DNA of 62,080 nucleotides, counting the filler, from Stramenopiles sp. TOSAG23-6 (lineage: Eukaryota), in NCBI GenBank assembly GCA_900128565.1. It is 16 parts of 16 records of this genome, joined end to end, with 100 filler letters (N's around TTAATTAATTAA, not from the genome) between each part and the next. Parts side by side here need not be neighbours in the genome. Positions count along the whole stretch, not along the records: positions 38,937 to 42,715 come from LT637381.1; 15 more parts are not named here. One strand, given 5' to 3'. A model generated the notes under the pieces. The model was not told the origin of the DNA. It saw nothing but the letters and a program-made list of their open reading frames with translations, and did not search any database. Made by a program: the position numbers and the translations under genes. Below, piece after piece: positions 1,194-57,400 of this stretch; positions within the stretch are counted from its first letter, which is position 1; the number at the start of each line of letters is the position of its first letter.

Positions 1194-1404
1194 TGTTGAT
1201 ACTGTGCCACGGACAAAAGTAAATAGTAGTATAATGTAGTTAGTAATGGTACAATATATGCAAGCCCAAAAACACAATTCTCAAAAAAAATACTACGTAG
1301 GATAAAAAAGAGTCAGCAAAAATCGTATACAAATATCCTAAATAAATCGACACATTTCGTACTTTTTATTTTCGAATCTCAAAAGTTTTATATGACCAAA
1401 GATA

Positions 1405-2821
1405 ATGATGCAGTTATCATGCAATTTGACAACTCGATTAATATCCACAACTAGATTTCATTGGAGAATACAACCCTTTACAAAACAGACTCAATTGAAA
1501 ACGTGTAAATACTTTACAAGTATAGCCAATAGTACATCCAATAGTACATCCACTGCTAAAGCGGAAACAAATACAAATCCATTTGCCTCATTTCGGAAGT
1601 TAGGAGTGTCACCGGAACTTGCCGATGGTTTGGCCAATTTAGACATAGCAAGTGACTCCTTACCAACACACATCCAAAAAGAATGCTTTGAAGTGATATT
1701 GTCTGGTAAGAATGTTGTATTGGGTGCAGAAACAGGTTCTGGAAAAACACTGGGTTATCTCATGCCAGTCATACAACGTTTGAAAGATCAACAATTACAC
1801 GGTAACGGAAGAGCTGCGCCTAAGCGTCCACATGTGATTGTCCTAACTCCTAGTCGAGAACTTTCACAACAAGTTTTTCAAGTTGCAAAAACTCTCTCTC
1901 ATTCCGCTCGATATCGTTGTGGTCTTGCGATTGGTGGTCAAAAAATGAACAAAAACGTTAAAAAGTTAATGTCAGGTGTTGATGTCCTCGTATCCAATCC
2001 AGGTAGAGTTAAAAAATTATGGGATAATGACGCACTGTATTTTTCACATGTTGAATGTGTTATAATTGATGAAGCAGATACGTTGTTGACAGAGGGATTT
2101 CAAGACGAGTTGGATTCACTTTTTAATTCACTTCAATCGCGTGCGATGCGTGGTGGTTCAGCATGTCAATATATTCTCGTAGGTGCCTCATTTTCTTCAT
2201 CTGTTCAGAAAGTTTTAAAGAAAAATTTTGTAGATTTGATTCATATTTCTTCTCCAAGTCTACACTATTTACCAAAGGGTTTACAACAGAAATTTATTAG
2301 ACCAAATGCAAATGATAAATATCCTATGTTATTAGAAGTACTTGGTTTGAATTCAAATGAAACAAATGAAACAAATGAAACAAATAAAACAAATAAAACA
2401 AATAAAACAAATAAAACAAATAAAACAAAAAACAAAACAAATAACATGAAAGAGGTTCTTCAGCCTACTATAGTATTTTGTAATAGTATCGATAGTTGTA
2501 GAGCAACTGAATATGCTTTAAGTGAAGCTGGATTTCACACGTCAGGCTTACATGTATGTTTCATTTTTTTAACAAAAAAATCGAAATTTTTTTTTTCGTA
2601 CGAAATTTTGTACCTAACAAATTTTTTAGATTTTTTTTGAAATATTTTTCCAAAATACATGGGGGGATTCCTCCACGCCTTCGACAAGATAATTACAATA
2701 ATTTTATTTTAGGAATGTCCACAATTTTAGTTGCAACAGATGTCGCTTCTCGTGGATTGGACCTTCCTAGTGTTACAAGAGTTGTAAACTTTGATTTCCC
2801 ACGTACAAGTGCCGAGTATAT
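1405..2821 (+). CDS. DEAD-box RNA helicase, probably organelle-targeted; exons 1405-2553, 2661-2821; motif VI missing
   Basis: Q motif, AETGSGKT, PSREL, DEAD, ATDVASRGLD; GLH|GGIP restored by removing 2554-2660. Confidence 0.92.
2554..2660 (+). mobile_element. Type copy of the Introner-like GT..AT intron family (about 65-70 copies in the window)
   Basis: GTATGTTT..TTTTCGTACGAAATTTTGTACCTAAC..GAAATATTTTTCCAAAATACAT; TACATG at both junctions; no AG near the 3' end; removal restores the helicase frame. Confidence 0.9.
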
Positions 2822-2942
2822 GTATGTTTTATTTTTTTTTTTTTTTCGGTAAAAAAAAAATCGATTTTTTTTTTTTTGGTAAAAAAATTTTGCACCTAAC
2901 AAATTTTTTTAGATTTTTTTGAAATATTTTTCCAAAATATAT

Positions 2943-3988: not shown

Positions 3989-6771
3989 ATGTAAGGACTT
4001 CCACATCAGAAGATGCTGAATTTGTTCGAACTGATTTATTAAAAACTGAGATATCAAAACTACCAATTACACTAGGATTGAATAGGCTTGGTGCTGATAC
4101 TTGACTTGAAGAATATTTAGAGTCTTTGTCTATATAGTCTATAGAATGATCTACACTAGAAGATTCAAATGCCGAACTTAAATTTTCTACCAATGGTGGA
4201 TTTATATGAAGACAGTGCCACGTATGAATACTTCCATCTCCGGCCAAATCACGAGAAGAACCATGTATTGTGAAAAAATATTTCGAAAAAAAAACTAAAA
4301 TTTGTTAGGTACAAAATTTCGTACGAAAAAAAAATTGAAATTTTGAAATTGCGAAAACGTACACGAATCATTTGAGGTTTATAATGATTACTACTGTCTG
4401 TAACATCATCATCTTTATAATTATTTACGTTATTTTTCGTATTACTTTGAGTTAAGACTAATATCATATGATTAATAGAATTGATCCATGAACGCGCCTC
4501 ACCGACTGTTTTTGCTCGGAGAGTCAATTTCTTACCATCAATATTCAGCACAAATGTGCCTTTCTTTTTTTCTTCATCTTGGCATGATAAAACACTAGTT
4601 CCTCCACTACCATCTGCAAAATAAACATTTTTTATAGAACCGGATTTTTCTAATAAACGAAGATCAACTTGAGTTTTGGCATACGAAAATATTCCTCCAC
4701 AGTATACTGTAGATTTCGTTAAAGACGCATGAGCCCGAAAGCGAAGTTGACAAAAACGTCGTTCCCAAGTAAGCATCCCATATCGCCAAGATCGTTTCCA
4801 GAGAAAGCCTTTATTCAATATTTGTTCATGTGAAGACGTTTCAACATCTTTTTTCTCTGAGGGAGGACTATGAGACATGGAATTAGGGTTAGGGTTAGGG
4901 TTAGGCCGAAGATTTGTCCCGGATCCAAACCACTTGAAGCGTATACTTATTTTATGATCTAGATCACTTAGATTTTCTGATTTTTTATTTTTTTCTGAAT
5001 TTTTATTTACGTTTACATGCATTTCAATGATACATCGTTCGTAATCTCTACCATTAGCTGATAATTTAAACATCGGTCCTGATATTATTTGTGATTGAAG
5101 AATAGGTACTGAATGCGACATCATCGAATCTATACTATATTTTGTATTACTTTTAATGAGTTTGTTGTAATCATTATATGGTATAGTATGTGTAGTATTT
5201 GGTGATAATCTCGAAGGAATTAAAACACTAAAATATTCTGGCATTTCGTTTTTTTCTCCTTTCATTAGGGTTAGGGTTTTTTTTGTTGGTTGCATTGGCA
5301 TAGAAAAGCGTAACAAAGGAACTAGATCTCTTATTCTTTGTTTTTGTTTTCGTTTCAAAACCGTATGTATTTTGGAAAAATATTTGAAATATTTTTCGTT
5401 AGGTACAAAATTTCGTACGAAAAAAAAACTTCGAATTTGAAAAAAAATAAAACATACATTGGTATCATTATGGACTTCGTTTGCTTCTTTCGATGAAGTT
5501 GTTGAAGAATTATATGTAGGTTGTTTTGTGTGTAGATTATTAGGGTTAGGGTTTCTTTCACTCCATAAATATAAATCAAGAATTGCACCAGGTGGAATTT
5601 TCGAACATGGTAAAACACAATCAAAAGACTGAAAACGGTTACATCCACTTCCTCGAAGATGACTTTCATGAAATCCACAAAACAATTCACCACCATGTAT
5701 TGTGAACAAATATTTTTTTTTTTTTTTTGTAAAATTTGTTAGGTACGGAATTTCGTACGAAAACCAAAAAAAAATCGATTTTTTTGTTTAAAAAAAAAAA
5801 TAAAACATATATATCGAAGTTCAGGTCGAACCATTATTGGATTTTGGATCACTGAATCTGTACCAAATTTTGTACCTAACGAATTTTGTTTTTTTTGGAT
5901 TGAATCTTTTTCTAGAGAGTCATTGCCATCAATACAAGTCACTTTAAAGCAATACGTGTATGTATTATGAAAAAATATTTTTAAAAATTGTTTTGTTATT
6001 AGGTACAAAATTTCGTACGAAAAAAAATAAGCAAAAAATAAATGAAAACGTACATGCATACTCTGTATTATTAATGTCATTTCCTATATCAGATTTTGAT
6101 AATGTTCTATCTCGAGGCATCAACAAACTACTGTCAGAACTACTATCTAAAATATTTGTAGTGACGGATAAATGTGAATTTGTACCAAATTTCGTACTTA
6201 ACGAACTTCGAATTTGCTGAGTGCCAACACCCTTAGAATTACCAAAAAAGTTTCGTTGATGTTTTAACTCCCTCTGAGAAGGAGATGAAGTCATTGTAGT
6301 TTCTGTAGGTGAAGTTCTTGTAGCTTTTCTAGGTGAAGTCATTGTAGCTTTTCTAGGTGAAGTCATTGTAGCTTTTCTAGGTGAAGTTATTGTGGCTTTT
6401 CTAGGTGAAGTTATTGTAGTTTTTCTAGGTGAAGAATATGTTGAAGTAGATAATGGTTTTCGAGGAGAAGATATTTCCGTTTTATCCCAAGAGCTTAAAC
6501 CAGTTTGAGTATTATAGTAATAGACGTTTCCTTTGCCATCATCACAAGGTACCCAGGCCGATTTCAAGCTTGTGCCATTTGTTCCAACAATCCTTGATTT
6601 ACTGGGCTTGGTCCATTGTGACTCTTGTGTTATAGTATTGTACCAATAATCATTATTCTGTTCATCTGTATATTTCACCCATTCTGAGTCAGCATAAGTA
6701 CTCTCACGAGCTGTATTTCTTGGCGATTTTTGGAATCCGTTAGTACTATGCACAGACTCTATCTGATACAT
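3989..6771 (-). CDS. Signalling protein with 2 WW domains, a PI3K-type C2-like region and a PH domain, 3' truncated; introns 5960-6053, 5695-5810, 5365-5457, 4263-4362
   Basis: WVKYTDEQNNDYWYNTITQESQWTKP; WVPCDDGKGNVYYYNTQTGLSSWDK; ELRY|GGELFCG; KGFLWKR..WERRFCQL..EARSWINSI. Confidence 0.78.
6283..6434 (-). repeat. Coding 24-bp tandem repeat (SPRKATxT, about 6 units)
   Basis: AGGTGAAGTCATTGTAGCTTTTCT units on the + strand. Confidence 0.9.
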
Positions 6772-24291: not shown

Positions 24292-25778
24292 TTACTTGCC
24301 ACCTTTTATCCAGCGTTGTATCATTCCAAAATAATGATAAAATGGAGTCGAACTCTCTTTACTTTTTGGTTCGTAGGGTTGAGTGTCAGTCAGATAAGGC
24401 ACATATGCAGTTCTACGAATGCTCTCTTTGCCATGAGTTGCCCCTTTCACACGATGCCATAAGCGCCCATCATGGACGGTGACGTCACCCGGGAATGTTG
24501 ACACACAAATTTCCGTCTCTTCATTATCATCATTGCTTATGAAATAAATTTTTCTAAACATGAAACCAAGTAAACTCTGATGATGTTTGTGACAAAATAT
24601 TCTGGAAAAAAAAAACGTTAGGTACGAAATTTCGTACGAAAAAAATATTCTGGAAAAAAAACGTTAGGTACGAAATTTCGTACGAAAAAAAAATATTTGA
24701 AATTTATCATCATGATAATTTACATGAGTCTTTGGTAATAAACAGAGAACAGCATCACCATTAAACTTTGAGACCTTGTCCAAATGAATTCCAAAATTGA
24801 GCATAGGACTTGGACGTCGTAAGTACGCGATATCACGAAGTGCATCTGTGTGCCAGCCTAACATTTTACGAGACCATAAAGAAGATTTATTCGCCTCAGA
24901 GCTGTAATACGCGTTCATAACAACACATGTATTTTGGAAAAATATTTCAAAAAAAATCTAAAAAAATATGTTAGGTACGAAATTTCGTACGAAAAAAACT
25001 GAATTCGATTTTTTTTTTTACCGAAAAAAAAAAAAAAATAAAACATTCCATCTTTCTCAACGTCTCCGATTCGCACTCGAGATCTTGCTTTAGGTAATAC
25101 TTGTAATACGTCAACTTCGCTTATAGAATGATCCAATATTTCTTTCTTTATAGTACTATTTGTACGTGATTTTTCATCATCGTATAAACCAAATGCATCA
25201 ACGACTATATCTTTCACGACATCGAAACGATCATTTCTTATGACATTTCGAACTGAATCGGACAAGGTAGATGTGAAGGGTATGCGGGTCAGACACTTAC
25301 GACCATTTTCACACGTCCCTTGAAATATTGGAACACCCCTAATGGATGTAACATTACGAACCAGTAAATCTTTCTCTATGCGTTGTCTTTCCGACAACAA
25401 TGTTTGAACCTCACTGGCAAGTAGAGCTCTCTCAAAACGAATGAATCCGTAGTATCTAAAAAATGATAACTGTTTGGATGTCAAGGAAGCTTCTAAATGA
25501 AAGACAGTGTCAACCGGAGGTATCTTCCCGGGGTTTATTTCTAAACCATATGTTGCGGCAAATCTAGCTTTTAGATCATTTTCATCGTATGGTGCAGTAT
25601 AATGTTTCTCATAGACATGAATCACGTGGGGTGTGATTGAACAGCCTAGTATTATAATGGTAAGCAAAGCAAGAGCACAAAACATAATACATTTAAGTGA
25701 AAACCATATCGCATTGACAAACGGTAAGTGCGGCTGCATATCTGCATTTTTCACTTTCAAAATTTTATTTGAGCTCAT
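24292..25778 (-). CDS. PhyH-like 2OG-Fe(II) dioxygenase with N-terminal TM; introns 24927-25048, 24583-24723
   Basis: GFIRFERAL, GWHTDALRD, LPKTH|HQ, PGDVTVHDGRLWHR (HxD..H triad). Confidence 0.82.
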
Positions 25779-31163: not shown

Positions 31164-34100
31164 AATAATGAAAATAATGAAAATAATGAAAATAATGAAA
31201 ATAATGAAAATAATGAAAATAATGAAAAAGACACAATGTGGCTTGAGAATGAAAATTCAAATCAATCACAAAATTCACAGGCATCCATTGTTATTGAAGA
31301 TTTGCTTCATTGGATTTCTCAAAATCAAACTCCTGCAGAACAATCCCAGGAAAAAAAATATACACAGTTAAATGTAAAAAATAATACAATACATAAAAGT
31401 AGTAAGGAGGCTAGTGTCCATAGTACGTTAGTGAATGCTTTTTTTACCTACATTTTTTTTTATAGTCAATTTCGTACCTAACAAAACTTTTAAAAATTTA
31501 AGAAAAATATTTTTTTACCTAAATTTTTTTTGTAGTCAATTTCATACCTAACAAATTATATATATATATATATATATTTCACAATAGACCTCGCAGATGG
31601 TAGTGAAAGTGATGGTTCTTGTATAGATGAACTAAGTGATGATGACGTCAATATACATGTACGTTTTTTCCTCATCAATGTTTTTTTCAATTTCGAAGTT
31701 TTTTTTTATACGAAATTTTGTACCTAACAAAATTTTTTTTTTTTTTTGAAAAATCGTTTTGTTTTTTTTGAATCAAATTCGAGTTTTTTTTTCAAACATT
31801 TTCATCCTACACTGTGTAGTACTTAACAATTTTCAAATGTATTATATTGTTTCACAAAATATACAAATTTCACGCCACTTCATTCACAAACGTCTTTCAC
31901 AATGACACAAACATCTCAAAACGATAATATATTCAATACGAAAATTCTAGATCCTACTACCCCTAACCCTAGGATTAACCCTAACCCTACAACACCTACA
32001 CATAGGAAAAAAATATCCTTGGAATTATTGAACCCTAGCCCTGACAACAATTCAAATCAAATATATCCTACAATTCCTAAAACTCCGAAAGAATATCACC
32101 GTGAAAAAAAACGAAGAAGAAAACTAGAAGAAAGTTCTATAAGTTGGAGTATTTTAGAATCTCAATATGTCGAAGAATCATCTCAGATGAAACAAAATAT
32201 GGATATAGACCCTAACCCTAACCCTATAAATGATAACACTAATGCTCATGTAGAAGAATCATCTCAGATGAAACAAAATATGGATATAAACCCTAACCCT
32301 AATCAAAATATGGATATAGAGCGTGTTCATCCAACTATAAATGATACTACCATTGTCAATATAGAAGATATAGTTAATATAAAAACTTCAAAACAAAATA
32401 TGGATATAGAGCATGTTCATCCAACTATAAATCCTACTACGGATTATGTAAAACAAACAAATGTAAAAACACGAAATCAAAAAAATAGTCGAAAGAGACG
32501 TTTTATACAAAAAAAAAAAAAGTATAATCCAAGTGATGAAACAGAGCATTCTACCCCTAACCCTAACCCTAACCCAAATAAACGTGTTTGTGTTGACTCC
32601 TCGTCTGATTTTTGTATACCATCTATACATCAAAAACATGAAAATTCTAAAACCTCATTTCATTGTACTGATTCAATACACCTTAAAAAAAAACAAAAAA
32701 AACAAAAAAAACAAAATAATTTTACAATATAAAAAAATAGCACCGTCAATTCAGTCCTTATTATCATCTCGATTTTGTCCAAAAATGGATGAAACTGTAC
32801 AGAATGGAGCATTTTATAGTAAGTATAAAGATATTCCAATAGCGCCATATCGATTTGGAGGTTTCACACATCATCTCCCTTTTGATGTTGAACAAACATC
32901 ACAATTAAAGCCATTTCGACCTACTTTACTTTCCCCTAACCCTAAAAATGTTATAACTGAAAACATAAAAAACATAAAAAACATAAAAAACATAAAAAAC
33001 ATAAAAAACATAAAAAATTGCCCTAACCCTAAACATGGTGTAGCTGAAAACATAAAAAACATAAAAAATAGCCCTACTACCCCTACACATGAGGCTCTAA
33101 TCAATACGATACATTCTACAAATTTCACACGAAATATTCATGTCAAGAATAATACACAAAATAAACAAAACAAACAACATGAAAAAAATGTATGTTTTAC
33201 TTTTTTTTTCAATTTCGAATTTATTTTTTCATACGAAATTTTGTACCTAACGAATTTTTTTTGAAATATTTTTCCAAAATACAGATACATTATGATTTTG
33301 AATATGTAAATGTAAATAATTCAATACGAGATTATGTTATACTTGAACCTTCTATGCAACCTCCGTCAATTGAAATTGTGAATTGTTGGATGAATCAAAA
33401 CCCTAACCCTAACCCCATCAAACTACCACTGGAAAGGTCAATAATACAATCAAAGAAACAATTTTTAAAATGTACACATAAAACTGAACTAGATAGACAT
33501 GGTAGGCGTTTACCCGTACAAATATATCGGAATAAGAGCCGAGATTCGCAAATTTCAGAAGAATCGAGAACACCTGCATCACTGCAGACAACACAATCGA
33601 GTTCATCTAGTCGTGATCTTTCTAATGATCTTTCTAATGATCTTTCTAATGATCTTACTAATGATCTTTCTAAGACAACACAATCGAGTTCATCTAGTCG
33701 TGATCTTACTAATGATCTTTCTAATGATCTTTCTAATGATCTTACTAATGATCTTACTAATGATCTTTCTAATGATCTTTCTAATGATCTTTCTAATGAT
33801 CTTTCTAGTGATCTTTCTAATGATCTTTCTAATGATCTTTCTAATGATCTTTCTAATGATCATAATCATTATAATGATTGTAATGATTTTAAATCTTCAT
33901 TTCCGAATACATCCCAAGTGAATTCCCAAGATAAAAACACGAATTCTCAAGATATACAAAATTCATTACGCATGAAATTTGGTAGGAAATTAGATACGGA
34001 TTCAATGGACAATAAAAAAAATACTAGGGTTAGGGTTTCACGTCTTGATAAATATGTCGTAGTATTAAGTATAGAATTGTTATGTGCTACTCGCAATGAA

Positions 34101-34873
34101 TTATCCCCAAATTCTAATAATGATGAAATTATTGCTATTTGTTATTGTATACATACGTTTTATTTTTTTTACAAAAAAAACGAATTTTTTTTTTCGTACG
34201 AAATTTCGTACCTAACAAATTTAAGTTTTTTTTTTTGAAATATTTTTCCAAAATACACATACTTGCGGAGATAATTCTAAAAATGATACAATAGGTGTCA
34301 TTGCTGTAATAAAGAATATAAATCTTGAAAAAAATCACACGCCAAAACAATCATGTAGGTCTCCAAAATTGAATTTCTAATTTTTTTTTTTTTTTTGAAT
34401 TTTTTTTTCTTTGTAAATTTTGTACTTAACAAAAAAAAATCAAAATTTTGAAAAAATATTTTTTCATCATGTATATTTAGGTCTAGTTGATCCAACAATA
34501 GAATTGACGGTCGTTCCAACAGAAACATTACTATTAGAAGAGTTTATTAAATTAGTTCAAAAAGTAGATCCTGATATAATCGTAGGGTATGACTTAGTAA
34601 GAAGATCTTTAGGTTATATGTATGTTTTATTTTTTTTCAAATTCGATTTGTTTTTTTCGTACGAAATTTTGTACCTAACGATTTTTTTTCTGAAATATTT
34701 TTCCAAAATACATTTTATCAAGAGCATCAATTGTAGAAGATCAGTCCCCTAACCCTAATAAAGAGTCTACATCATATAACCCTAACCCAAACGAGAAAAA
34801 ACATTCCACAAAAATGATATCCTCGCTCTCACGAGTTCCTTTCGCTCCTGCCCACCAACGTGTGAATAATGAT
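31164..34873 (+). CDS. REV3: DNA polymerase zeta catalytic subunit, internal multi-exon fragment
   Basis: LSIELLCATRNELSPNSNNDEIIAICY; ETLLLEEFIKLVQKVDPDIIVGYDL..SLGYI|LSRA; LSRVP; upstream exon boundaries partly uncertain. Confidence 0.82.
33614..33860 (+). repeat. Coding 12-bp tandem repeat (DLSN)n in the REV3 linker
   Basis: GATCTTTCTAAT units. Confidence 0.93.
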
Positions 34874-35347: not shown

Positions 35348-35438
35348 GTATGATTTATTTTTTTTCAAATTCGAATTTTTTTTCATACGAAATTTTGTAC
35401 CTAACAATTGTTTTTTGAAATATTTTCCCAAAATATAT

Positions 35439-40217: not shown

Positions 40218-42522
40218 ATGGACGGAGTGTACGAAGGTGGTGAGTATCATACAGAACAATTACGTTGTTGTCAACGTTTAGGCCATTGGACAGAAGTAGA
40301 GGATGGTCCTGATGAAGGAACACGAGTTTTTATTCCTGGAGATGATAATGTTATAGGCGCTTTACGAGATATTCAAAGGTATCTCCGACGTGATAATCCA
40401 GCCCAACGTAATTTCTATCGAACTCTAGGTAAATGGAAAGTTGTCCAGACCAAGTTACTTCCTCTTGTATTACATCGTCGTGATGATCCAACTTTACTAT
40501 TTCAAGCAACAAAACTTTTAGTTATGGTAACCATGCCATTAACACCGGAACAAGATCAAGATGTTGAAAACGCATTTATTGAATCTGAATTATTGGTCGA
40601 ATATGTTGAAGCGTGTATATATTATTTTCATCATTTTTTTTTTTTCATTTTTTTTTTTCATAGAAAATTTCGTACCTAACCAATTTTTTTTTTTCAATTT
40701 TTTTTCACTCTATATGGCTTAAACAAGATATGATTGCTGTATTTTCTACAATGCTTGAAGGGCCTCTGTCTAGAATAGCTTCTCTTCACAATAATCCAAA
40801 TGCAAAAGTACCAAAACATGATCAAATGGTACTTGAATTGGTATTAACTTTATTTCGTAATTTACTGAATGTAGTCAATGTACAACGACATGTACGTTTT
40901 TCAAATTATTTTTTTTTTTTTCAAATTTTTTTTTAATACAAAATTTTGTACCTAAACAAAAAAACACAATTTTTTTTTTCAAAATTTTTTTTCAAAATTT
41001 TTTTTTAACCCATTTTGAATATTTTTATTTTTTTCACACAATACAGGCAGCAACAGCTTTGTCACATCGGTTAAATATACGTGAAAAATTAATTCAAAGA
41101 TACCACAAAGAAGATGTCATTAATTGTATTCTTTTATTTGTTGGTAATATTGACATACCTGCTTTAAAAGATTTCAATATGCTTGCGTTAGAATTAATGC
41201 ATTTATTATTTCGTGGTTTCGATCCTAAATTTCTCATTGAAATTCATAAATTACAAAATCCACAAAAAAATAAAAATGGTAAACATTCGAAATATGCACA
41301 ATCTCCATCAAGCTGTGCATATACAGTCAATGATCCAAATGATCCATTACATAAAAGTATGGTAGATGATAGAATTTTACAGAAATCAAAACGAAGTGCA
41401 ATGTATGTTTTATTTGTTTTTGATTTCTCAATATTTTGGGATATTTAGGGATATTTAGGGTTAGGGTTAGGGTTCTATATATATATTTTTTCATAGACAA
41501 TTTCATACCTAACGTTTTTTTTTTATTTTGTAAAATTCGTGTTTTTTCACAATATAGGAGTAGTCGACATTCACGATTTGGTGGTACGATGCGTATGAAA
41601 AGTGTTGGTGGCCAAAGTAGACGACAATTGGTTCATAACGCATGGAGTGATACATCAAGTAGTATGGATAAGACAGCAGCAGCGACGCGTGGAGCTTCAA
41701 AACAACAAAGGTTGATTCAATCTGAATGTGGAATTTCAGCTGATTTATTAGGATTTGGAAAAACTCCAAAAAAAAATTTTGCAGCAGTTTTGTGTGAAAC
41801 ATCAGAATTATTTATTGATACTTGTTATGGTCCATGTACTTTTGTAAATGTTTAATTTTTTTTCATTTTTTTTTTTCATTTTTTTTTTTCATTTTTTTAC
41901 AAAAAAGTTAAAATTTTTTTTTTTTTTCAAAATATTGTACCTAACAAAAAAATTTCATTTACAATATTTCTTCTCAGTCTATTAATCGCATCTCTACGTA
42001 AGGCATTTGCTACAAGTGAAGGGTATCTACCCAGTGATGAGTTATATTTACAACATTTAATTTGGTATTGTTCACGCTATCAGAGATATCGCTCTTTACA
42101 CGAAATCAAAATGTGGCAAAAAAAAAAAAAAAAAATGAAATTGAAAAATTCAGAAAAAAATGTCGGTTTTAATATTGGCACTTTGGGATGTACAATGCAA
42201 AAATGGATATTTAAGTGGTTAACTCGAGCATCTGAGAGATTTGGTGGTATTGGTGCAGATGAGAATAGATTGCATGTAGGTTAAAAATGTATCCTTTAAA
42301 AAAAATTGAAATTTTTTTTTCCTACGAAAATCTATACCTAACAAAAAAAAAAAAATGAAAAATTTAAAAAATATTTTTGTACAAATACATGTGTCTCCCG
42401 GTTCACTTGTTATAAGTGGTTGTGCACTCTCTGAAGTCATTATATTATTACAAGAAATGGTATACTCTACATGTGATACTGTTCGTGAAGCAGGTATGCG
42501 CTTACAAAAAGATGTTTTTTAT
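40218..42522 (+). CDS. TIMELESS: TIMELESS/Tof1 family protein, 3' truncated; introns 40615-40715, 40892-41046, 41403-41557, 41836-41982, 42276-42390
   Basis: LRDIQRYLRRD, LLVMVTMP, LTLFRNLL, SRHSRFGG, CYGPLIAS, QKDVFY. Confidence 0.88.
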
Positions 42523-46594: not shown

Positions 46595-46814
46595 NNNNNN
46601 NNNNNNNNNNNNNNNNNNNNNNNNNNNNNNNNNNNNNNTTAATTAATTAANNNNNNNNNNNNNNNNNNNNNNNNNNNNNNNNNNNNNNNNNNNNAATTTT
46701 GTACCTAAAAAAAAAATTCAAAATTAAAAAAAAAAAAAAGATTTTTTTTCTTAGGTACAAAATTTCGTACGAAAAAAAAATCAAAATTGAAAAAAAAAAA
46801 AAGAAAAAACATAC

Positions 46815-47846
46815 AGCAGTAAGTAAACTTTCAGAGCGTTGAGCTGCTTCATTATGAAAAACAAGATCAGGATGTACACAATCTACAATTGTCAATGCTT
46901 CTTCATTTGTAATATCTTCCATAGTGGTATGAGTCATCCATGAGATGTACTGTGAAAAAATATATACATAATTTTTTTTTAAATTTTCAAAAAATTTAAA
47001 AAAAAATTTAAAAAAAATTTAAAAAAAATTTAAAAAAAATTAAAATCATTAGGGTTAGGGTTATACCATACACAGATTTTCTAATTACTCTAGGTTTCTT
47101 CCATACAACATAACTTGCACCTGAACTTTTAGATCCATCAACACCAAGACAAAGTGATCGCATTAAGTAGTTACGGTTAGAGATTCGTTGTACCATTCCA
47201 AAAAAACTATTTATTTTTGAAAAATATTTCAAAAAAAAATTAAAAAAATTGTTAGGTACGAAATTTCCTACAAAAAAAAAAAAAAAAAAATTGAAAAAAA
47301 AAAACATACATCGATTCCCTTACCCCAATTAGCTGACATTGAGTATGGTTTTGCTCCAGCTAATGTGCAACGATTACGGATGAATAGACCGGCATCATAA
47401 CCAGCTTTGGCTTTTCCACCTTTGATTTCTCCAAAAGCAATGGTAAATGGTTTCGTATTCTTTGGTTTTTTCAATGCACGTTTCTCAGCTGCACGTTTTT
47501 TTGCAGCAATGGCATTTTGCGTTTCCGGGGATACTAGAAAAATAGTGACCCAACTATCATTGTCACAGTTACCATCATCACCACTCCAGAAGGGTGGTTC
47601 GTCTCCTGTAGTGCCCCAAGATGCCCAATCGTCGAAGTGATCAGACTGGTTACGTGCTACTATAGCAGCCGCGACTGCCTCTTCGCGAGTTGCGTGACTG
47701 GACAATGTCGTAGTGTCTGTCATTTCTTCTCGATCTTCTTCTGACATATTATAATTACAGCCATAGCTAGACGGACCTTCCGTGCAACGTAATAACCATT
47801 TGGTGGTAGTCATTGGGTCTGTCTCTTTTCTCTTGAGCGTTCCCAT
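46815..47846 (-). CDS. Hypothetical protein, 3' truncated; introns 47209-47309, 46945-47071
   Basis: Frame stays open only with ..AT 3' ends. Confidence 0.6.
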
Positions 47847-48264
47847 GCTTTCTTTTCTTCGTTAAGAGAGAAAACACTTTGCAAGAAAAAAAAAAGAGAC
47901 TCTCCAGATGACCAATTAGCAATAATTTCAGTGGGTCAGAAAATAATTGAAAATAATTGGTCATTTTTTTTGAGTCTCTTTACTTGTTAGGGTTAGGGTT
48001 GGGCGACTATGTACTACGACAAGTGTAATTAATAAACCACGAATTATCAATGATTTTTTTATTCATTTTGTTTGTCATACATTTTTATGATTTTATTTAC
48101 ATCACAAATTAGTCCAATCTTATTCAACATGTTTTCAATTTAAAATAATTTACAATACTTTTATTCAACTTATATTTATGAACAAAACTAAAGAATTAAA
48201 CAAAATTTATTTGGAATAAAAATATTCAAAAAATAAAAAAAAATGTAATTAAAAATTTACTGGA

Positions 48265-49159
48265 TTATCGAAATCTTTTCTTAATCTGATCACTAATCAT
48301 CTTCTTTGTATAATTCCTTGGATTTGGAATTTTTTGTGACATTACATCTGCCATTTGTTGATATGTTGGTCTTGGGCTCATATCATACAATTTTCTGAGA
48401 TTTTCTATTTCAATATCACTCCAAAGAGACTGTTTTTTTGTGACATCAAATCTTCTATGAATCTGTAAACTAATCATCTGCAATGTATAAATCCTTGGAT
48501 TTGGAATAATTTCTTGTGACATTATATCTATCATTTGTTGATATGTTGGTCTTGGACTCATATCATACAATTGTCTGAGCTTTTTTATTTCAATATCACT
48601 CCAACGAGACATTTTTGTGGCACCAAATCTTTTCTTAATCTGTATACCAATCATTTCACGTGTATAATTCCTTGGATTTGGAATAATTTCTTGTGACATA
48701 GTATCTGCCATTTGTTGATATGTTGGTCTTGGACTCATATCNNNNNNNNNNNNNNNNNNNNNNNNNNNNNNNNNNNNNNNNNNNNNNNNNNNNNNNNNNN
48801 NNNNNNNNNNNTCTATTAATCTGATGACTAATCATAGGACCTGTATAATTCCTTGGATTTGGAATAATTTCTTGTGACATTATATCTACCATTTGTTGAA
48901 CTGTTGGTCTTGGACTCATATCATACAATTTGCTGAGCTTTGAAATTTCAATATCACTCCAAAGAGCCTTTTTTTTTGTGACACCAAATCTTCTATTTAT
49001 CTGATTTCCAATCATAGGAATTGTATATTTCCTTGGATTTGGAATAATTTCTTGTGACATTATATCTACCATTTGTTGAAGTGTTGGTCTTGGACTCATA
49101 TCATACAATTTGCTGAGCTTTGTCAGTTCAACATCACTCCATCTTGTACACTTAACCAT
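48265..49159 (-). CDS. Protein of tandem ~60-aa helix-turn-helix/Myb-like repeats (internal gap)
   Basis: WSDIEIxKLxxLYDMSPRPTYQQMxDIMSQEIIPNPRxYTxxMIxxQIxRRF, at least 4-5 units of about 180 bp. Confidence 0.7.
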
Positions 49160-49596
49160 AGTGTAAGATGAGTATGTACTTTGTAACAACTGAATGTACG
49201 TAGCGTACAAACAACGCGTGTTGCATCTTGCTTCGGCCGACTCGTCAAAAAATTTTCAATCTATTTTTCAAGTTTTCAATTTCGTTGTCTCAAAAATCTC
49301 AAAAAAAAAAAGCAAGCAAAAACACGAAATACAAAAAAAAAATCAAGTTCATTTTTTGACCACCACCACTCGAAAAAAAAAAACAACAAATTTGATTTGA
49401 AATTCACAATTCTACAATTAAATAAAGCCAATTCTTCTTCAAAAAAGAAAAAAACAGTCAATGAATTCTGTCTATACCATTCAATGTGTCCATTGTATAT
49501 AATTTCTTGTATAGTTTCAGTGAAACAGAATTTAAATACTGCAAGTGGTATTATTCCACGGGATATCGACGTGTAGAAAGTTCTATTTTGAACAAC

Positions 49597-50444
49597 ATGG
49601 AAAAGCAATCAATTTCTCGACGTAAACAATCAAGACCAGTAAAGAAACACAAACTTTATGCTCCTTCTACTCGTTCATCATCAGCATCTGCAGTAGCTAT
49701 ATTAGCCCTACAAGGATTGCGGTCTGGTATGGAAGACGTGTATGACATTGTCGAAGATGACTCCGTCTCAAATTTATCAGAAGTTGGTGCAAAGTATTAT
49801 GCAGTGTATGATGGTCATGGAGGTAGACTTGCTGCTGAATTTTGTTCCAAACATCTTTTACAAACAATAGTAAGTCAACCTGAATTCGTCAAGGAAGCCA
49901 ACAATTCAACTAGTTTTTATACTAATTCTGCTAAACACTCAAAAAACACAAAAAACACAAAAAAGCGAAAAAGAAATTCGAAACAAGATGAAACCAATTA
50001 CAACCAAAATTACTTTTTCCGTGCAGTGACGAGAGGCTTCTTAGAAGTTGATCAAAAGTTTTGTGAACTAGCTACACAAGAACAACTCGTTGATGGTACA
50101 ACGGCAACGTCAGCTTTTGTATTTAATAGTCATATCGTTGTTGCAAACGTGGGTGATTCAAGAGCCATTTTAGTCAAAAATAATGGTCAAGTACGTTTTC
50201 AATTTTTTTTTCATTTTTTTTTTCGTACGAAATTTCGTACCTAACAATTTTTTTTTTTTTTTTTTGAAATATTTTTTCATACTACAAGTGAAATGCCTCT
50301 CTACTGATCACAAACCTGAAACTGAAGGAGAGACTGAACGTATCATCAAAATGGGAGGTACAGTGACGTATAAAAATGGTATTTCACGTGTTAGTTCAAT
50401 GCTTGCGATTACACGCGCTGTTGGTGATGCAGAATTGAAACCAT
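49597..50444 (+). CDS. Protein phosphatase 2C, 3' truncated; intron 50191-50287 (GT..AA)
   Basis: QGLRSGMED, AVYDGHGG, DGTTA, ANVGDSRA, LSTDHKP, LAITRAVGD. Confidence 0.94.
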
Positions 50445-50624
50445 GTACGTTTTGTTTTGACATTTTGAAAGNNNNNNNNNNNNNNNNNNNNNNNNNNNNN
50501 NNNNNNNNNNNNNNNTTAATTAATTAANNNNNNNNNNNNNNNNNNNNNNNNNNNNNNNNNNNNNNNNNNNNACGAAATTTTGTACCTAACGATTTTTTTT
50601 TTGAAATATTTTTCCAAAATACGT

Positions 50625-54445: not shown

Positions 54446-57400
54446 TTATTGATGTGCTTATATACAATGAAAATTTGAATGTTCGCAGTCTTGTCGCAGA
54501 TACGCTGAAAGATGCTTGTTCTCGATCAACGCGTTGTTTTCATTTTGTATTTGAGAATTTAACGTCTGAACTCCAACATCTTGATATGCTATGCCCAACT
54601 TCAGCAGAGTTTTTTTCATTACTTCAGCATCTTGGTGGGAAATCATCTCTTGCTGATTCTGAGCCTTTAGCTGCGACTTTATGTGAACGTTTAATTTCAT
54701 TTCCTCGGGATGCCGATGTACCATCTTCTACATCTGTGGCTATTACAATTGCTCCACGATCACATTTGATGTCTCCTTCATTGCCAATGTTATCCTCGAG
54801 TTTGCCAGGACGTGTCAGTACCTCAACTTCAGACTCCGAAGGTAGCGACCACGTGAATGAGTTAAGTGAAGAAAATCGATGTGTTGTTCCATTTCTAGTT
54901 GGTGCTCTTCAGATACTTCGATCCTTATGCTTACGTCAGTCTGGTGTAGTTAGTGTCAGTTTTGCGAAGTTTCTATTTGAAGAATTTTTGTTTTCTGTTC
55001 CATCACCGACGAATAAATCATATTGGCCTGTGTGTCGCACCCCTCAAACAAGACGTGCTGCATTTCAACTTCTTGGTACACTTCAAAAAAGCTCTGTAGA
55101 AATATTGACAGTTACATCCTCACTTGCGCTTGAACTTGTCAACAATGTTGCAAAATCATTGAATGATACATGGGATTTCGTGCCTTGTACGGAGCTTCGA
55201 GGAAGTCATTTATTTTCAGGCCTTCATAACCAAGGATGTACATGTTACATAAATTCACTCGTTCAACTACTTTTTATGACGAAAGCGTTTAGTCGTGGTA
55301 TCATGAAATCATGTTCAAGTATCCCTCATCAGAATGTATCAACCTTATCAGAGTATGATGGATTATGCTCTGGTGCTGACTTGGTGGGTAGACGAGTATT
55401 GATTCTATGGGAAAGTGGACATAAATATTATGCTAGGGTAGAGCGCTATATTCCATATGCAAGTGGAAAACCGGGAGGAAATCATTATATACAATATGAT
55501 GATGGAAATATATCACTATACGATATGTCGATTGGACGAAGTGGATTTGAAACGTCTACATTTCATGTTTTACCTAAATGCATTGACGAAGAAGATGGTG
55601 GTGCATTGTTTATGCGTCAAGTTCAAAGGACATTTCATTTTCTATCAGATAGTGTTTTAACTGCATTTGATCCTGTAGATTTAGTTGAATCGTGTAAAAT
55701 TTTGAACCTCAACTATAATGTACATCAACAAAACGATGCCGCAGAGTTCTTGGATAAAGTCCTTGGTGCCATTGATGACCATTTGAAAAAAAAAGGTAAG
55801 CCAAAGAATAGTTCTATTCCAAGAAATCATGTGTATGATTGTTTTGCTGTAAGTCTAGTTAAACAAAAAATCCCACACGGTTGTCCCAAGGCTCATATAG
55901 TGGAAAGAGAGGAGATTTATTTGCGCTTAGAGATGGATATTCGAGATAAAAGTAGTCTTGAAGATGCTTTAATGGCGTATACAATGGGAGAGGAAATGAC
56001 TGGGGACAACAAAGTTTTATGTGATATGTATGTTTTATTTTTTTTCAATTTCGAATTTATTTTTCGTACGAAAGTTTGTACCTAACGATTTTGAAATATT
56101 TTTCTAAAATATATGTGTGGTGAGAAAAAAAATGTTACTCTTCGCTCTGCATTTGGGAAACTTCCGAATACCCTATTAGTTCATTTAAAGCGTTTTGATC
56201 TTGATTTTACAACATTTGAACCTGTTAAATTGAATAATCGCATCGACTTCCCAGTTCGACTTAATATGAAACCGTATACGAAGGAAGGAATTGCAGAACG
56301 CGAAGCTCCACAAAGTTCACCAACATCTCCTGTAGGTTCGGATACATCGAAGGGTGATTGTGAAAATGATTCATTGAATGATGTAAATGATCTCTTGGAT
56401 TATGAATATGAATTGAGTGGTGTATTGATTCATTCTGGTGTTGCTCAAGGTGGCCATTATTATTCATTTATCAAAGACAAGGAGAGAAGTGAAAGAACTG
56501 TTGTATCCCTTCCATGCGGATCTTCAAATGACACTGGTGATTCTAATGATAATATATATTGGGATGAAGGTATCTGGTTTCGTTTTGATGATGATCGTGT
56601 TAGTCCGTTTGATGCGAAAGATATCGACCTTGAGTGTTTTGGAGGTGTTTCAACACGTAAAATTCGCGAACTTGATGGTGGTAAATACGTGGATCGAGTA
56701 ATTCAATTGCCACGGACTTCTAATGCTCTTATTATATTTTATGATAAGATTCTTCCCACCCCTCCCACAGAAGAAGATACAGTAGAAGAGAATCGACATA
56801 GAAGTGATAGTGCTAAATCACCATGTAATAAAACTCAGAAATCTTTACTTGAGAAAAAAATGGCAAACACGAAATTGCATAATGAGTCATTGAAAAGTAG
56901 AACGTTGATACCAAATGGAAGTGTCATCTCAGATAAACCTGAACCTGTTGATTATTTTTTAAAAGAAGTTTGGGAGAACAATCAAATGTTAATACGAAAT
57001 GCTTATGTACTAAGCCCAGATTTTCATAGTTTACTCTTCTCCATGTTAAATGCTCCAAATGAATTAATATATGATAGTACAAAATCTATTGAGAAACCTG
57101 ATGTGAACAAGCCCCCACCATTACCATCTAACATAAATAATAACAACTTTTCTAAGTTGACTATTTCAACTGAAACACTAAAAAACGATAAGGGAAATAC
57201 CGGTAAAGAAATATGTAATGATACTGAGTTTCTCTTAGTAAAATTAGGCACCATGTTTTTTTTAGATACTATTCTCCATGCGGCAAATAAAGTTGACATG
57301 GGTAATAATCTTCCGTCTCTAATTAGGTTATACGAAAGAAATCCAGCGTGTTGTCGATGGTTACTAGAAAAATTGATCTCTTGCGAAAGTTCAGAAGATT

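What the first reader, a model, noticed from the sequence alone, without database searches (positions are those of the whole stretch)
41836..41982. Available YAG acceptors are bypassed in favour of AT
Seen: in TIMELESS, CAG at 41975-41977 gives an immediate stop, while the AT at 41981-41982 gives CYGP|LIASLRK. The same holds for 24583-24723 (TTCCAG gives a frameshift), 46945-47071 (CACAG gives a stop), 47209-47309 (adjacent AG gives a stop) and 50191-50287 (CAAG gives TGA). Inference: the acceptor is set by position relative to the AAATATTTTTYCAMAAT box or by pairing with the donor, not by scanning to the first AG.
Basis: partly seen in the sequence, partly recalled or inferred. Interest (0 to 1): 0.85.

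Follow-up and report, generated by a model that had tools for sequence, protein, structure and literature searches.

The report
Mobile introns that end in AT
The genes of this marine protist are full of copies of one roughly 100-base mobile intron that has to be cut out from GT to AT, not to the near-universal AG, passing over usable AG sites, which suggests that its splicing machinery reads intron ends by an unusual rule.

Summary
The window is a chain of independent ~3.8-kb contigs of an AT-rich marine eukaryote. It carries 62 hits of one ~100-nt intron family: GTAYGTTTT at the start, a palindrome plus CCTAAC in the middle, and TTTTTYCAMAATACAT at the end. Of 33 curated introns, 25 are GT-AT, 5 GT-AG, 1 AT-AT, 1 AT-AC and 1 GT-AA. 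The A at position -2 is invariant.

Homologue alignments fix four GT-AT junctions to the codon: TIMELESS 41836-41982 (40 of 45 orthologues gap-free), TIMELESS 40615-40715, a DEAD-box helicase and a USP protease. All five "AG gives a stop or frameshift" claims reproduce.

Three claims need correction. 50191-50287 ends in AA. 24583-24723 and 46945-47071 each have an in-frame canonical alternative.

Copies lie in the sense orientation of their host genes (54 sense, 3 antisense, 5 unclear). They carry U2-type donor and branch signals, which favours RNA splicing over DNA excision.

No spliced read across a GT-AT junction was obtained, so the RNA step is inferred. A public gene model of the helicase uses an internal AG and gains an insert that no homologue has. 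I found no paper describing a GT-AT-dominated intron set.

The parts
41836..41982 (+). TIMELESS intron of the finding, GT..AT, 147 nt. A degenerate family copy that the element HMM did not hit.
   Evidence: The junction CYGP[L]IASLRK is gap-free in 40 of 45 orthologues.
41975..41977 (+). Bypassed CAG, 5 nt upstream of the junction. It arises from an A-to-G change in the box (CACAAT to CTCAGT).
   Evidence: (use gives F-Y-stop).
41937..41945 (+). GTACCTAAC core, the branch-site-like CTAAC, 38 nt from the junction.
41963..41982 (+). 3' box AATATTTCTTCTCAGTCTAT. It has the same 20-nt length as the family consensus, with 6 substitutions by my hand alignment and no indel.
   Evidence: substitution count by eye.
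40218..42522 (+). TIMELESS gene part. Exons 40218-40614, 40716-40891, 41047-41402, 41558-41835, 41983-42275 and 42391-42522. The contig ends inside the next intron.
   Evidence: Pfam PF04821 on exons 1-3.
40615..40715 (+). TIMELESS intron, GT..AT. The left flank is GT, so a 2-nt register shift is not possible without changing the mRNA.
   Evidence: Colinear with relatives P0121 and P0122.
40892..41046 (+). TIMELESS intron, a family copy ending ACAG (GT-AG).
   Evidence: (profile positions 154|155 contiguous).
41403..41557 (+). TIMELESS intron, a family copy ending ATAG (GT-AG), with an internal TTAGGG tract.
42276..42390 (+). TIMELESS intron, GT..AT.
2554..2660 (+). DEAD-box (DDX28-like) helicase intron, GT..AT, a full consensus copy.
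   Evidence: SGLH|GGIPP is gap-free in 17 of 17 homologues. The public model P0001 has a 6-residue insert.
56028..56114 (+). USP protease intron, GT..AT. Removal restores the CxxC motif.
   Evidence: Contiguous residues 222-225 in chain 5wch_A and 1789-1792 in 7yxx_A.
24583..24723 (-). Intron of the finding, GT..AT, with two tandem cores. A canonical CAG 6 nt downstream is also in frame.
46945..47071 (-). Intron of the finding, GT..AT, with no GTACCTAAC core. A canonical GT(-2)..CAG(-5) pair is also in frame.
47209..47309 (-). Intron of the finding, GT..AT (ends AAAT). The adjacent AG gives stops.
50191..50287 (+). PP2C intron of the finding, GT..AA. The same mRNA can also be read as TA..AG.
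34153..34258 (+). Family copy with A at the first and C at the last position (AT..AC), in a family-B DNA polymerase gene.
5695..5810 (-). Family copy with AT..AT ends.
33190..33284 (+). Consensus copy ending ACAG (GT-AG). G replaces T at the same position, with the same 20-nt box spacing.
50445..50471 (+). 5' end of a further copy, cut by the contig end. An RNA-run contig leaves the window sequence exactly here.
   Evidence: (X9 record 32).

Best explanation
The intervals are introns that descend from one mobile, introner-like element. The element is about 90-130 nt long and has three conserved blocks: a 5' GTAYGTTTT, a hairpin-forming palindrome GTACGAAATTTYGTAC that runs into CCTAAC, and a 3' block TTTTTYCAMAATACAT.

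They are removed from the pre-mRNA by a spliceosome of the major (U2) type. This spliceosome uses an ordinary GT donor and, most likely, the CTAAC as branch site. It then joins the exons after an A-T (less often A-G, A-A or A-C) that lies in fixed register with the 3' block, not after the first AG.

Shown:
- The family exists.
- Copies lie in the sense orientation of their host genes.
- The excised interval is known to the codon at four junctions.
- A at -2 is invariant and the last base varies.
- AGs are bypassed.

Inferred:
- Removal happens at the RNA level.
- The major spliceosome does it.
- CTAAC is the branch site.
- Something beyond the last dinucleotide (the extended 3' motif or its distance) fixes the site.
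For: Repeated family:
- The element HMM gives 62 hits in 60,527 non-N bases.
- Contigs break inside copies.
- 20 full copies are 61-92% identical pairwise, median 75%.
- Subfamilies share internal spacers.
- In seawater DNA run X3, summed contig depth is 14,769 in the bin holding an element copy (47199-47324), against 0-12 in the bins without element sequence.

Strand-specific:
- 54 hits lie in sense to the flanking open frames, 3 lie antisense (2 are core-only partial hits, 1 is a boundary error) and 5 are unclear.

Splice signals in 33 curated introns:
- G1 31, T2 33, A3 31, G5 28, T6 32.
- The core CCTAAC is about 90-100% conserved.
- A at -2 in 33 of 33. The last base is T 26, G 5, A 1, C 1.

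Exact junctions:
- Helicase: 17 of 17 homologues gap-free.
- TIMELESS 41835|41983: 40 of 45 gap-free.
- TIMELESS 40614|40716: colinear with P0121, and with an uninterrupted ORF on an 809-nt contig (P0122).
- USP: CxxC contiguous in 2 of the 2 chains matched by both exons.

Frame and alternatives:
- The frame is kept in 19 of 23 informative copies.
- 6 of 25 GT-AT introns have no in-frame, stop-free GY..AG alternative within 36 nt.

RNA hint:
- A 175-nt contig of polyA metatranscriptome run X9 follows the PP2C exon to the CCAT|GTACG donor at 50445. It then runs on for 39 letters that are absent from the window.
- Read by eye, those letters keep the PP2C frame open.
Against: - No RNA read or contig bridges any GT-AT junction. 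In the one stretch laid (46695-50471, 3 RNA runs), none crossed 46945-47071, 47209-47309 or 50191-50287.
- RNA-run contigs also pile up on the element (depth 6,528 in X8). This fits unspliced RNA or DNA carry-over equally well.
- The X9 contig could come from an intron-less allele or from DNA.
- 4 of 23 copies did not favour the GT..AT offset. At least one of these is my misplaced donor. 35348-35438 stays unexplained: (98,26) codons against (98,128) at offset +2.
- 19 of 25 GT-AT introns have some in-frame canonical alternative within 36 nt. For those without homologue evidence it cannot be excluded.
- The PP2C loop is one residue longer than in 4 solved PP2Cs, so that junction is pinned only to within 3 nt.
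- No snRNA or splicing factor could be examined: no genome is held and Rfam finds nothing in the window.
- An AG 5 nt upstream of a used non-AG site is hard to reconcile with what I recall of major-spliceosome 3' site choice.
Confidence: 0.6

Rival explanations
1. These are the same spliceosomal introns, but the true cut sites lie 2 nt upstream. The introns are then AT..AC (first A, last C), with the AT before the GT being intronic and the final AT exonic.
For: - 20 of 25 GT-AT introns have a direct repeat of at least 2 nt, so both readings give the same mRNA.
- Most end ACAT, which would give AT-AC.
- AT-AC is an established terminal pair (recalled).
- One copy is literally ATACG..ACAC (34153-34258).
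Against: - The shifted reading is impossible without changing the mRNA in 5 of 25: 4263-4362, 40615-40715, 46945-47071, 52580-52660 and 60183-60273.
- It gives AT..CT for the orthologue-fixed TIMELESS intron, and AT..AT or AT..AA for copies ending ATAT or AAAT.
- It puts the conserved GTAYGT two bases out of register.
- 5 copies carry G instead of T at the last position, which makes plain GT-AG at the unshifted register.
Confidence: 0.1
2. The family is removed by a minor (U12-type) spliceosome that has been expanded and altered in this lineage, as in Physarum. There the 3' site is set by distance from the branch site and the last dinucleotide is loose.
For: - The mix of termini (GT-AT, GT-AG, AT-AT, AT-AC, GT-AA) resembles the non-canonical U12 classes reported for Physarum. 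There GT-AT makes up 17% of 1,014 non-canonical U12-type introns (passages).
- The 20-nt box-to-junction spacing is kept in 25 of 33 introns.
- GTAYGTTTT matches the U12 donor motif given in that paper except at positions +5 and +6.
Against: - G at +5 in 28 of 33 introns is the U2-type signature; the U12 motif has C there.
- The best branch-like motif lies 29-49 nt from the junction. In Physarum it lies 10-12 nt from the junction.
- The box itself offers a branch A only about 6-9 nt from the end.
- No minor snRNA could be looked for.
Confidence: 0.08
3. Removal is from RNA but independent of the spliceosome, guided by pairing of the two intron ends. This would resemble the nonconventional or 'intermediate' introns of euglenids and some diplonemids.
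For: - The exon AT plus GTAT can pair with the final ATACAT. A terminal helix of 5-9 bp that spans both junctions appears in 6 of 8 folds.
- Euglenid intermediate introns combine conventional and nonconventional features (abstract of PMC3935182 in the listing; passages of PMC6221363).
Against: - The borders are conserved, unlike nonconventional introns: GT in 31 of 33 and A at -2 in 33 of 33.
- The donor looks like a U1/U6 site.
- Fold z-scores are weak, from +1.2 to -2.9.
- The TIMELESS intron shows no terminal helix.
- Positions +4 and -6 show no covariation.
Confidence: 0.08
4. The elements are cut out of DNA (precise transposon or IES-like excision), and the sequenced DNA is an unprocessed form.
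For: - 24 of 33 introns have short direct repeats of 2-5 nt, usually AT, CAT or ACAT.
- The ends GTAT..ATAC are inverted repeats.
- Removing the element plus one repeat restores the gene, as in precise excision.
Against: - The sense-strand bias of 54 to 3 is not expected for DNA excision.
- No DNA contig in seawater run X3 joins across the three introns laid. This is weak evidence because cover there is thin.
- The element carries strand-specific splice signals.
Confidence: 0.04
5. The introns are not copies of a mobile element. They are ordinary introns whose likeness comes from very strict splice signals plus T-rich filler. Such cases were noted in other genomes of this scan.
For: - The best conserved blocks are exactly the three presumed signals.
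- The filler is low-complexity.
- Earlier notes on a green alga reached this verdict for look-alike introns.
Against: - A 16-nt palindrome upstream of the CTAAC is conserved beyond any known branch-site need.
- Subfamily-specific spacers are shared by 7-8 copies each and go with GTATG or GTACG starts.
- Contigs end inside copies.
- Depth on the element is more than 1,000 times that of neighbouring bins in DNA run X3.
- A relative's contig has an uninterrupted ORF across one site.
- This rival would not remove the GT-AT oddity.
Confidence: 0.05
6. Canonical AG sites are in fact used, and the gene products carry small insertions or deletions or are decaying genes. The GT-AT pattern would then be an artefact of choosing the tidiest open frame.
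For: - 19 of 25 GT-AT introns have an in-frame, stop-free GY..AG alternative within 36 nt.
- The public model P0001 was built that way.
Against: - At the four junctions with homologues, every such alternative adds or removes 2 or more residues, where the alignments are gap-free.
- 6 of 25 have no such alternative at all.
- The alternatives lie at scattered distances, as chance AGs would.
Confidence: 0.03

Closest known systems
Introners / introner-like elements (Micromonas, Aureococcus, fungi, dinoflagellates and others)
   Same: - Many look-alike copies of a short element sit inside coding exons in the sense orientation.
- The element carries splice signals.
- Short direct repeats lie at the junctions.
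- Splice sites can be partly recruited from the duplicated target.
(Passages of PMC11282704, and of 10.1101/2022.06.06.494994.)
   Different: In the passages I read, the described introners yield GT/GC..AG introns. Here the 3' end is AT in 25 of 33. The duplicated AT or CAT gives a non-AG end, and internal AGs are passed over. TIRs are only 4 nt (GTAT/ATAC) and no transposase is seen.
Non-canonical introns of Fritillaria borealis and other tunicates (MITE-derived, spliced by an altered major spliceosome)
   Same: A genome in which most introns break the GT/AG rule, are linked to small transposons, and are thought to be handled by a changed U2-type machinery. (Abstracts of PMC13326754 and 10.1101/2025.08.15.670264 in the listing; the 2019 paper is known to me only from reference lists and recall.)
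   Different: According to those abstracts, both ends deviate there and U1 and U2AF are altered. Here the donor is a textbook GTAYGT and only the last base deviates. The lineage is unrelated.
Expanded minor (U12-type) intron system of Physarum polycephalum
   Same: GT-AT, AT-AT and AT-AA termini occur, and the 3' site lies at a fixed short distance from a conserved motif (passages).
   Different: There GT-AT is 17% of 1,014 non-canonical introns, which are themselves part of only 0.8% of all introns. The donor is [GA]TATC[CT]TT and the branch motif lies 10-12 nt from the end. Here G stands at +5 and the branch-like motif is 29-49 nt away.
Nonconventional and intermediate introns of euglenids and hemistasiid/eupelagonemid diplonemids
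   Same: Non-AG ends, possible pairing of the intron ends, and a suspected MITE origin. (PMC12621601 abstract and passages; PMC6221363 passages.)
   Different: Those introns lack conserved borders and a U1-like donor. Here GT and A(-2) are nearly invariant. My early guess that the window is diplonemid was not borne out: the nearest named protein bears a stramenopile-type label.
Yeast-type major-spliceosome introns (GTATGT ... TACTAAC ... YAG)
   Same: The donor GTAYGT and the branch-like TAC(C)TAAC, with 29-49 nt from branch motif to 3' site, match this grammar (motifs recalled; counts).
   Different: The 3' end is A-T, not A-G, and upstream AGs are not used.

Membership tests
Introner (transposon-derived spliceosomal intron family) | Many similar copies at unrelated sites within genes | tested here: met
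   62 HMM hits in 62 kb across at least 25 different genes. Median pairwise identity is 75%. Subfamily spacers are shared.
Introner (transposon-derived spliceosomal intron family) | Copies lie in the sense orientation of the host gene and carry splice signals | tested here: met
   54 sense, 3 antisense, 5 unclear of 62. GT in 31 of 33 and the CCTAAC core about 90-100% conserved.
Introner (transposon-derived spliceosomal intron family) | Target-site duplication and terminal inverted repeats | tested here: inconclusive
   Direct repeats of at least 2 nt in 24 of 33 introns, mostly AT, CAT or ACAT. The inverted ends are only GTAT/ATAC. No empty site was found for comparison.
Introner (transposon-derived spliceosomal intron family) | Removed from RNA by the spliceosome | tested here: inconclusive
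   No RNA contig bridges a GT-AT junction in the stretch laid. One RNA-run contig leaves the genome exactly at a family donor.
Canonical U2-type GT-AG intron | GT donor with G at +5 | tested here: met
   G1 31, T2 33, G5 28 of 33.
Canonical U2-type GT-AG intron | AG at the 3' end, with the first suitable AG after the branch used | tested here: not met
   AG in 5 of 33 and AT in 26 of 33 (25 GT-AT plus 1 AT-AT). 9 of 25 GT-AT introns bypass an upstream AG. The TIMELESS case is fixed by 45 orthologues.
U12-type (minor) intron | Donor [AG]TATCCTT (C at +5) | tested here: not met
   G at +5 in 28 of 33 and T at +6 in 32 of 33. The motif is as given.
U12-type (minor) intron | Branch motif about 10-20 nt from the 3' end | tested here: not met
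   CTAAC lies 29-49 nt from the junction in 31 introns, 104 nt in one, and is absent in one. Whether the 3' box holds a branch site was not testable.
U12-type (minor) intron | Minor snRNAs and proteins present | not testable with these tools
   No genome is held. No Rfam match in the window.
Euglenid-type nonconventional intron | No conserved borders; a stable helix joins the two ends | tested here: not met
   The borders are conserved. A helix appears in 6 of 8 folds, but z-scores run from +1.2 to -2.9 and there is no covariation.
DNA-level internal eliminated sequence / precisely excising transposon | Excision is independent of gene strand, and empty sites occur in DNA | tested here: not met
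   Strand bias of 54 to 3. No joined form in DNA run X3 over the three introns laid, though cover there is thin.

The most novel reading that the evidence does not exclude
In this uncultured marine stramenopile-like lineage the major spliceosome has changed its 3' splice-site rule. Only the A at -2 is required. The last base is usually T. The site is fixed by an extended motif, or by its distance, and not by the first AG.

This change let an introner with AT-generating target duplications spread to roughly one copy per kilobase. GT-AT would then be the majority intron class of the genome. Public gene models that assume GT-AG would be wrong across the board.
Probability: 0.5. Interest if true: 0.9.

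Novelty: new variant of a known kind. Interest (0 to 1): 0.8.

Why it matters
The terminal AG is among the most constant features of eukaryotic genes. From what I recall of spliceosome structures, the A at -2 is read by contact with the branch adenosine and the last G by contact with the first G of the intron.

A natural genome where the last base is mostly T, while A(-2) and the donor stay canonical, would be a ready-made experiment on how far that contact can be relaxed and what else fixes the site.

It would also be an example of a mobile element shaping, or exploiting, the splicing rule of its host.

In practice, gene prediction that assumes GT-AG will mis-build most genes of such organisms. 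The one public model I could compare carries a false 6-residue insert and two further doubtful deletions. Gene counts, completeness scores and claims of gene decay for this group may need rechecking.

Tried and rejected
- Whole-genome search: no genome is held.
- Earlier notes of this scan: none for this genome or sequence. A word search gave only unrelated genomes.
- RNA evidence:
  - The stretch then laid (46695-50471; RNA runs X8, X9, X10 and DNA run X3) gave no contig across 46945-47071, 47209-47309 or 50191-50287, and thin cover of the genes. This says nothing for or against splicing.
  - The RNA runs held only 6-7% of the sampled words.
- The loose end of the X9 contig is not elsewhere in the window.
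- Solved-structure searches with the two TIMELESS exons flanking 41836-41982 found nothing useful. Pfam does not reach that junction. The exon downstream of 34620-34713 also found nothing.
- Related loci in metagenome contigs:
  - The TIMELESS exon 5 query confirmed none of 594 pattern matches.
  - The alignment of exon 1 with relatives gave 19 loci of 32-46% identity and GC 43-78%. None of the 19 holds the element. No empty or orthologous site was therefore obtained.
- Protein searches for a public model of the TIMELESS exon (longer proteins) and of the 47310-47861 exon found nothing.
- Rfam: no family in the window.
- My guess that the organism is a diplonemid with nonconventional introns was dropped.
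- Ideas considered and dropped because the sequence offers no second GT or a bulge-helix-bulge: two-step (nested) canonical splicing, and tRNA-type or IRE1-type cleavage.
Full report
**What the window is**

The window is eukaryotic and AT-rich, with 27-42% GC in 2-kb windows. It is not one locus.

Its N runs lie about every 3.9 kb. The pieces between them fall steadily in length (3800, 3800, 3797 ... 3768 nt). Each joint is 44 N, a 12-letter stop linker, and 44 N. The window is therefore a chain of independent contigs sorted by size.

Contigs often end inside the repeat described below. An apparent intron across a linker, such as 50445-50624, is an artefact.

No whole genome is held. The best named relative of one protein is a public gene model whose source label points to a marine stramenopile of the MAST-3 kind. 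I use this as a lead to the taxon only.

Public runs that hold the stretch are three small DNA runs of one organism, seawater metagenomes, and seawater polyA metatranscriptomes with 6-7% of the sampled words.

**The observation**

The five intervals are as described.

For the TIMELESS intron I built the spliced protein from six exons. I aligned it with the 45 orthologues of 900 residues or more among the best 150 hits of a profile-free search with exon 1.

- The codon split by the intron (T|TA, Leu) falls on a column holding L 32, F 5, V 4, I 1, M 1 and gap 2.
- 40 of 45 orthologues have no gap within five columns on either side.
- The only in-frame canonical alternatives there would delete 2 or 4 residues.

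The junction 41835|41983 is therefore fixed, and the CAG five bases upstream is passed over.

**Corrections to the finding**

- 50191-50287 ends AA, not AT. A five-base direct repeat (CAAGT) at both ends lets the same mRNA be written as TA..AG.
- Its junction is right in frame. But the two exons extrapolate to an overlap of one residue in four solved PP2C chains, so it is pinned only to within one codon.
- 24583-24723 has an in-frame CAG 6 nt downstream.
- 46945-47071 has an in-frame GT(-2)..CAG(-5) pair. I had no homologues for either gene, so canonical splicing cannot be excluded for these two.

**A repeated intron family**

All five introns, and nearly all other introns I could place in the window, are copies of one element.

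- The core GTACGAAATTTCGTACCTAAC has 52 matches at up to 3 mismatches, against 0 expected.
- An HMM of 20 full copies (102 positions) gives 62 hits covering 4,767 of 60,527 non-N bases.
- The TIMELESS intron of the finding and 46945-47071 are too decayed to be hit. They still keep the 3' box and, in the first, the core.
- Full copies are 61-92% identical pairwise, median 75%.
- They fall into subfamilies that share internal spacers: 8 copies with one spacer, 7-9 with another, and 4 with a third, which go with GTATG or GTACG starts.

Together with the contig breaks and a pile-up of contig depth on the element in seawater DNA (14,769 against 0-12 in bins without element sequence), this speaks for copying. 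Strict splice signals alone would not explain it. That rival was suggested by earlier notes on another genome.

**Termini**

From the 62 hits and three further introns I curated 34 introns with both ends inside one contig and a frame-consistent join. One (189-271) was mis-entered and is dropped, which leaves 33.

Left out were:

- 13 hits cut by linkers.
- About 18 partial hits or hits whose ends I could not place. Among them is 35348-35438, where GT..AT removal does not give the best frame.

The 33 are 25 GT-AT, 5 GT-AG, 1 AT-AT, 1 AT-AC and 1 GT-AA. By eye, one more AT-AT (near 16406-16503) and one more GT-AG (near 189-275) exist.

Position by position:

- G1 31, T2 33, A3 31, position 4 T 17 / C 14, G5 28, T6 32.
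- At the 3' end, A at -2 is 33 of 33. The last base is T 26, G 5, A 1, C 1.

The G-ending copies have the G at the same place as the T of the others, with the same 20-nt spacing to the box.

**Exactness of the junctions**

The frame alone fixes a junction only modulo three. GT..AT removal keeps a long frame in 19 of 23 informative copies, against 1 and 3 for the other offsets. At least one of the four misses is a donor that my pattern misplaced.

Four GT-AT junctions are fixed by homologues:

- The TIMELESS junction above.
- TIMELESS 40614|40716, colinear with a 76%-identical gene model (P0121) and with an uninterrupted ORF on an 809-nt contig of a 70%-identical relative (P0122).
- The helicase junction SGLH|GGIPP, gap-free in 17 of 17 homologues.
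- The USP junction. The upstream exon ends at chain residue 223 of 5wch_A and the downstream exon starts at 225, with the split codon between. This restores C-x-x-C. The same holds in 7yxx_A.

Six of the 25 GT-AT introns have no in-frame, stop-free GY..AG alternative within 36 nt. The other 19 have some, at scattered distances.

**Register**

In 20 of 25 GT-AT introns the exon ends in AT (often CAT or ACAT), like the intron. The cut could then equally lie 1 or 2 nt upstream.

The 2-nt shift would make many of them AT-AC. It is not possible without changing the mRNA in five copies. It gives AT-CT for the TIMELESS intron and puts GTAYGT out of register. GT-AT is the only single rule that fits 25 of 33.

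**Bypassed AGs**

Nine of the 25 GT-AT introns hold an AG between CTAAC and the junction.

- In three it lies 4-5 nt from the junction.
- Two of those (41975-41977 and the one in 46945-47071) arise from the same A-to-G change in the box.
- Several copies have TTTTTTAG about 13 nt after CTAAC.
- The public model of the helicase gene uses that site. It carries FFLKYF in place of nothing in 17 of 17 homologues.

**RNA or DNA**

Copies lie in the sense orientation of the flanking open frames in 54 of 62 hits. Three lie antisense: two are core-only partial matches to a partly palindromic core, and one is a boundary error. Five are unclear. This bias, the U1/U6-like donor and the conserved CTAAC argue for removal from RNA.

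Direct proof is lacking.

- In the one stretch I could lay, no RNA contig crosses a junction.
- RNA-run contigs also cover the element heavily, so unspliced RNA or DNA is present in those libraries.
- One 175-nt contig of run X9 follows the PP2C exon to the CCAT|GTACG donor at 50445. It then continues with 39 letters not found in the window.
- Read by eye, they keep the frame open. This fits splicing at a family donor, but also an intron-less allele.

**How the 3' site might be chosen**

- The distance from CTAAC to the junction varies from 29 to 49 nt.
- The box keeps a 20-nt distance in 25 of 33 introns, and 19-21 nt in 28 of 33, even in decayed copies.
- This fits an extended 3' motif read as a unit, but it is also what descent from one element gives.
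- End pairing (exon AT plus GTAT with ATACAT) is predicted in 6 of 8 folds with weak z-scores, and shows no compensatory change.
- A minor-spliceosome reading is tempting because of the loose last base (Physarum). It fails on G at +5 and on the branch distance.

From what I recall of spliceosome structures, the A at -2 contacts the branch adenosine and the last base contacts the first base of the intron. An invariant A(-2) with a free last base fits a relaxed second contact.

**Literature**

I searched the held library seven times. The searches used these terms:

- Non-canonical introns, transposon, AT-AC and introner.
- Diplonemid and single-cell terms.
- GT-AT, introner, marine and splice.
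- MAST-3 terms.
- GT-AT with stramenopile, which gave one unrelated paper, seen in the listing only.
- Five GT-AT phrases, which gave 7 papers. The 6 listed look unrelated by title and abstract start.

What I read:

- Passages of the Physarum preprint.
- The abstract and passages of the diplonemid paper.
- Passages of the transposon-intron review, of the Euglena paper and of the introner preprint.
- Passages of a paper on single-cell genomes of marine stramenopiles. It has 'intron' twice, and 'splice' and 'canonical' not at all, in its main text.

The 2016 diplonemid single-cell paper is not held. Supplements were closed.

Within these limits, I found no description of a GT-AT-dominated intron set.

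**Verdict**

The mechanism most likely is spliceosomal removal of an introner family at GT..AT. The RNA step and the machinery are inferred, not shown.

Noticed in passing
whole window; N runs listed: The window is a chain of about 16 independent contigs sorted by falling length (3800 to 3768 nt). They are joined by 44 N, a 12-letter six-frame stop linker, and 44 N. Neighbouring pieces are not linked in the genome, and many contigs end inside copies of the intron element.
   Followed up: yes
27 tracts, e.g. 4883-4905, 18288-18307, 19207-19225, 32555-32575, 41455-41474, 47049-47063: Short telomere-like tracts, (TTAGGG)2-4, occur 27 times in 62 kb. By eye, most have the C-rich strand on the sense strand of the gene. 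Many lie inside open frames, where they read as N-P-N-P runs. Some lie inside introns. Each C-strand unit contains CTAAC, the branch-like motif. Origin and meaning are unknown.
   Followed up: partly
1396-2942 (+), protein P0001: The public gene model of the DEAD-box helicase differs from the open frame at three places. It has a 6-residue insert made from the 3' part of the intron element, a removed RAMRGGSA stretch, and a removed N/T/K-rich stretch. GT-AG-only gene prediction seems to mis-build genes of this organism.
   Followed up: partly
element core, e.g. 24617-24632 (-), 34196-34211 (+): The 16 bases before CCTAAC (GTACGAAATTTCGTAC, often with T for the second C) are a perfect or G-U palindrome. 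They fold as a hairpin in most predicted structures. Its role is untested; it could present the branch site or be a transposition signal.
   Followed up: no
34153-34258 (+); 5695-5810 (-); near 16406-16503 (-): Three copies have A instead of G as the first base. One of them also has C as the last base (AT-AC), which is the classical co-variation of the first and last intron bases. The other two end in T.
   Followed up: partly
47199-47324 and 50097-50348: Contigs of polyA metatranscriptome runs pile up on the element (summed depth 6,528 in X8 and 2,137 in X10), as they do in a seawater DNA run (14,769). The element is thus very abundant in the sea. It is present in RNA libraries either as unspliced or excised RNA, or as DNA carry-over.
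   Followed up: no
48265-49255 (-): A gene made of tandem ~60-residue repeats (W-S-D-I-E-I ... L-Y-D-M-S-P-R-P-T). A seawater DNA contig skips 354 nt here, probably a repeat-number variant.
   Followed up: no
35348-35438 (+): This is a full family copy in a short-chain dehydrogenase-like gene. GT..AT removal does not give the longest frame: 26 codons downstream, against 128 at offset +2. It may be a different acceptor, a sequencing error or a decaying gene.
   Followed up: no
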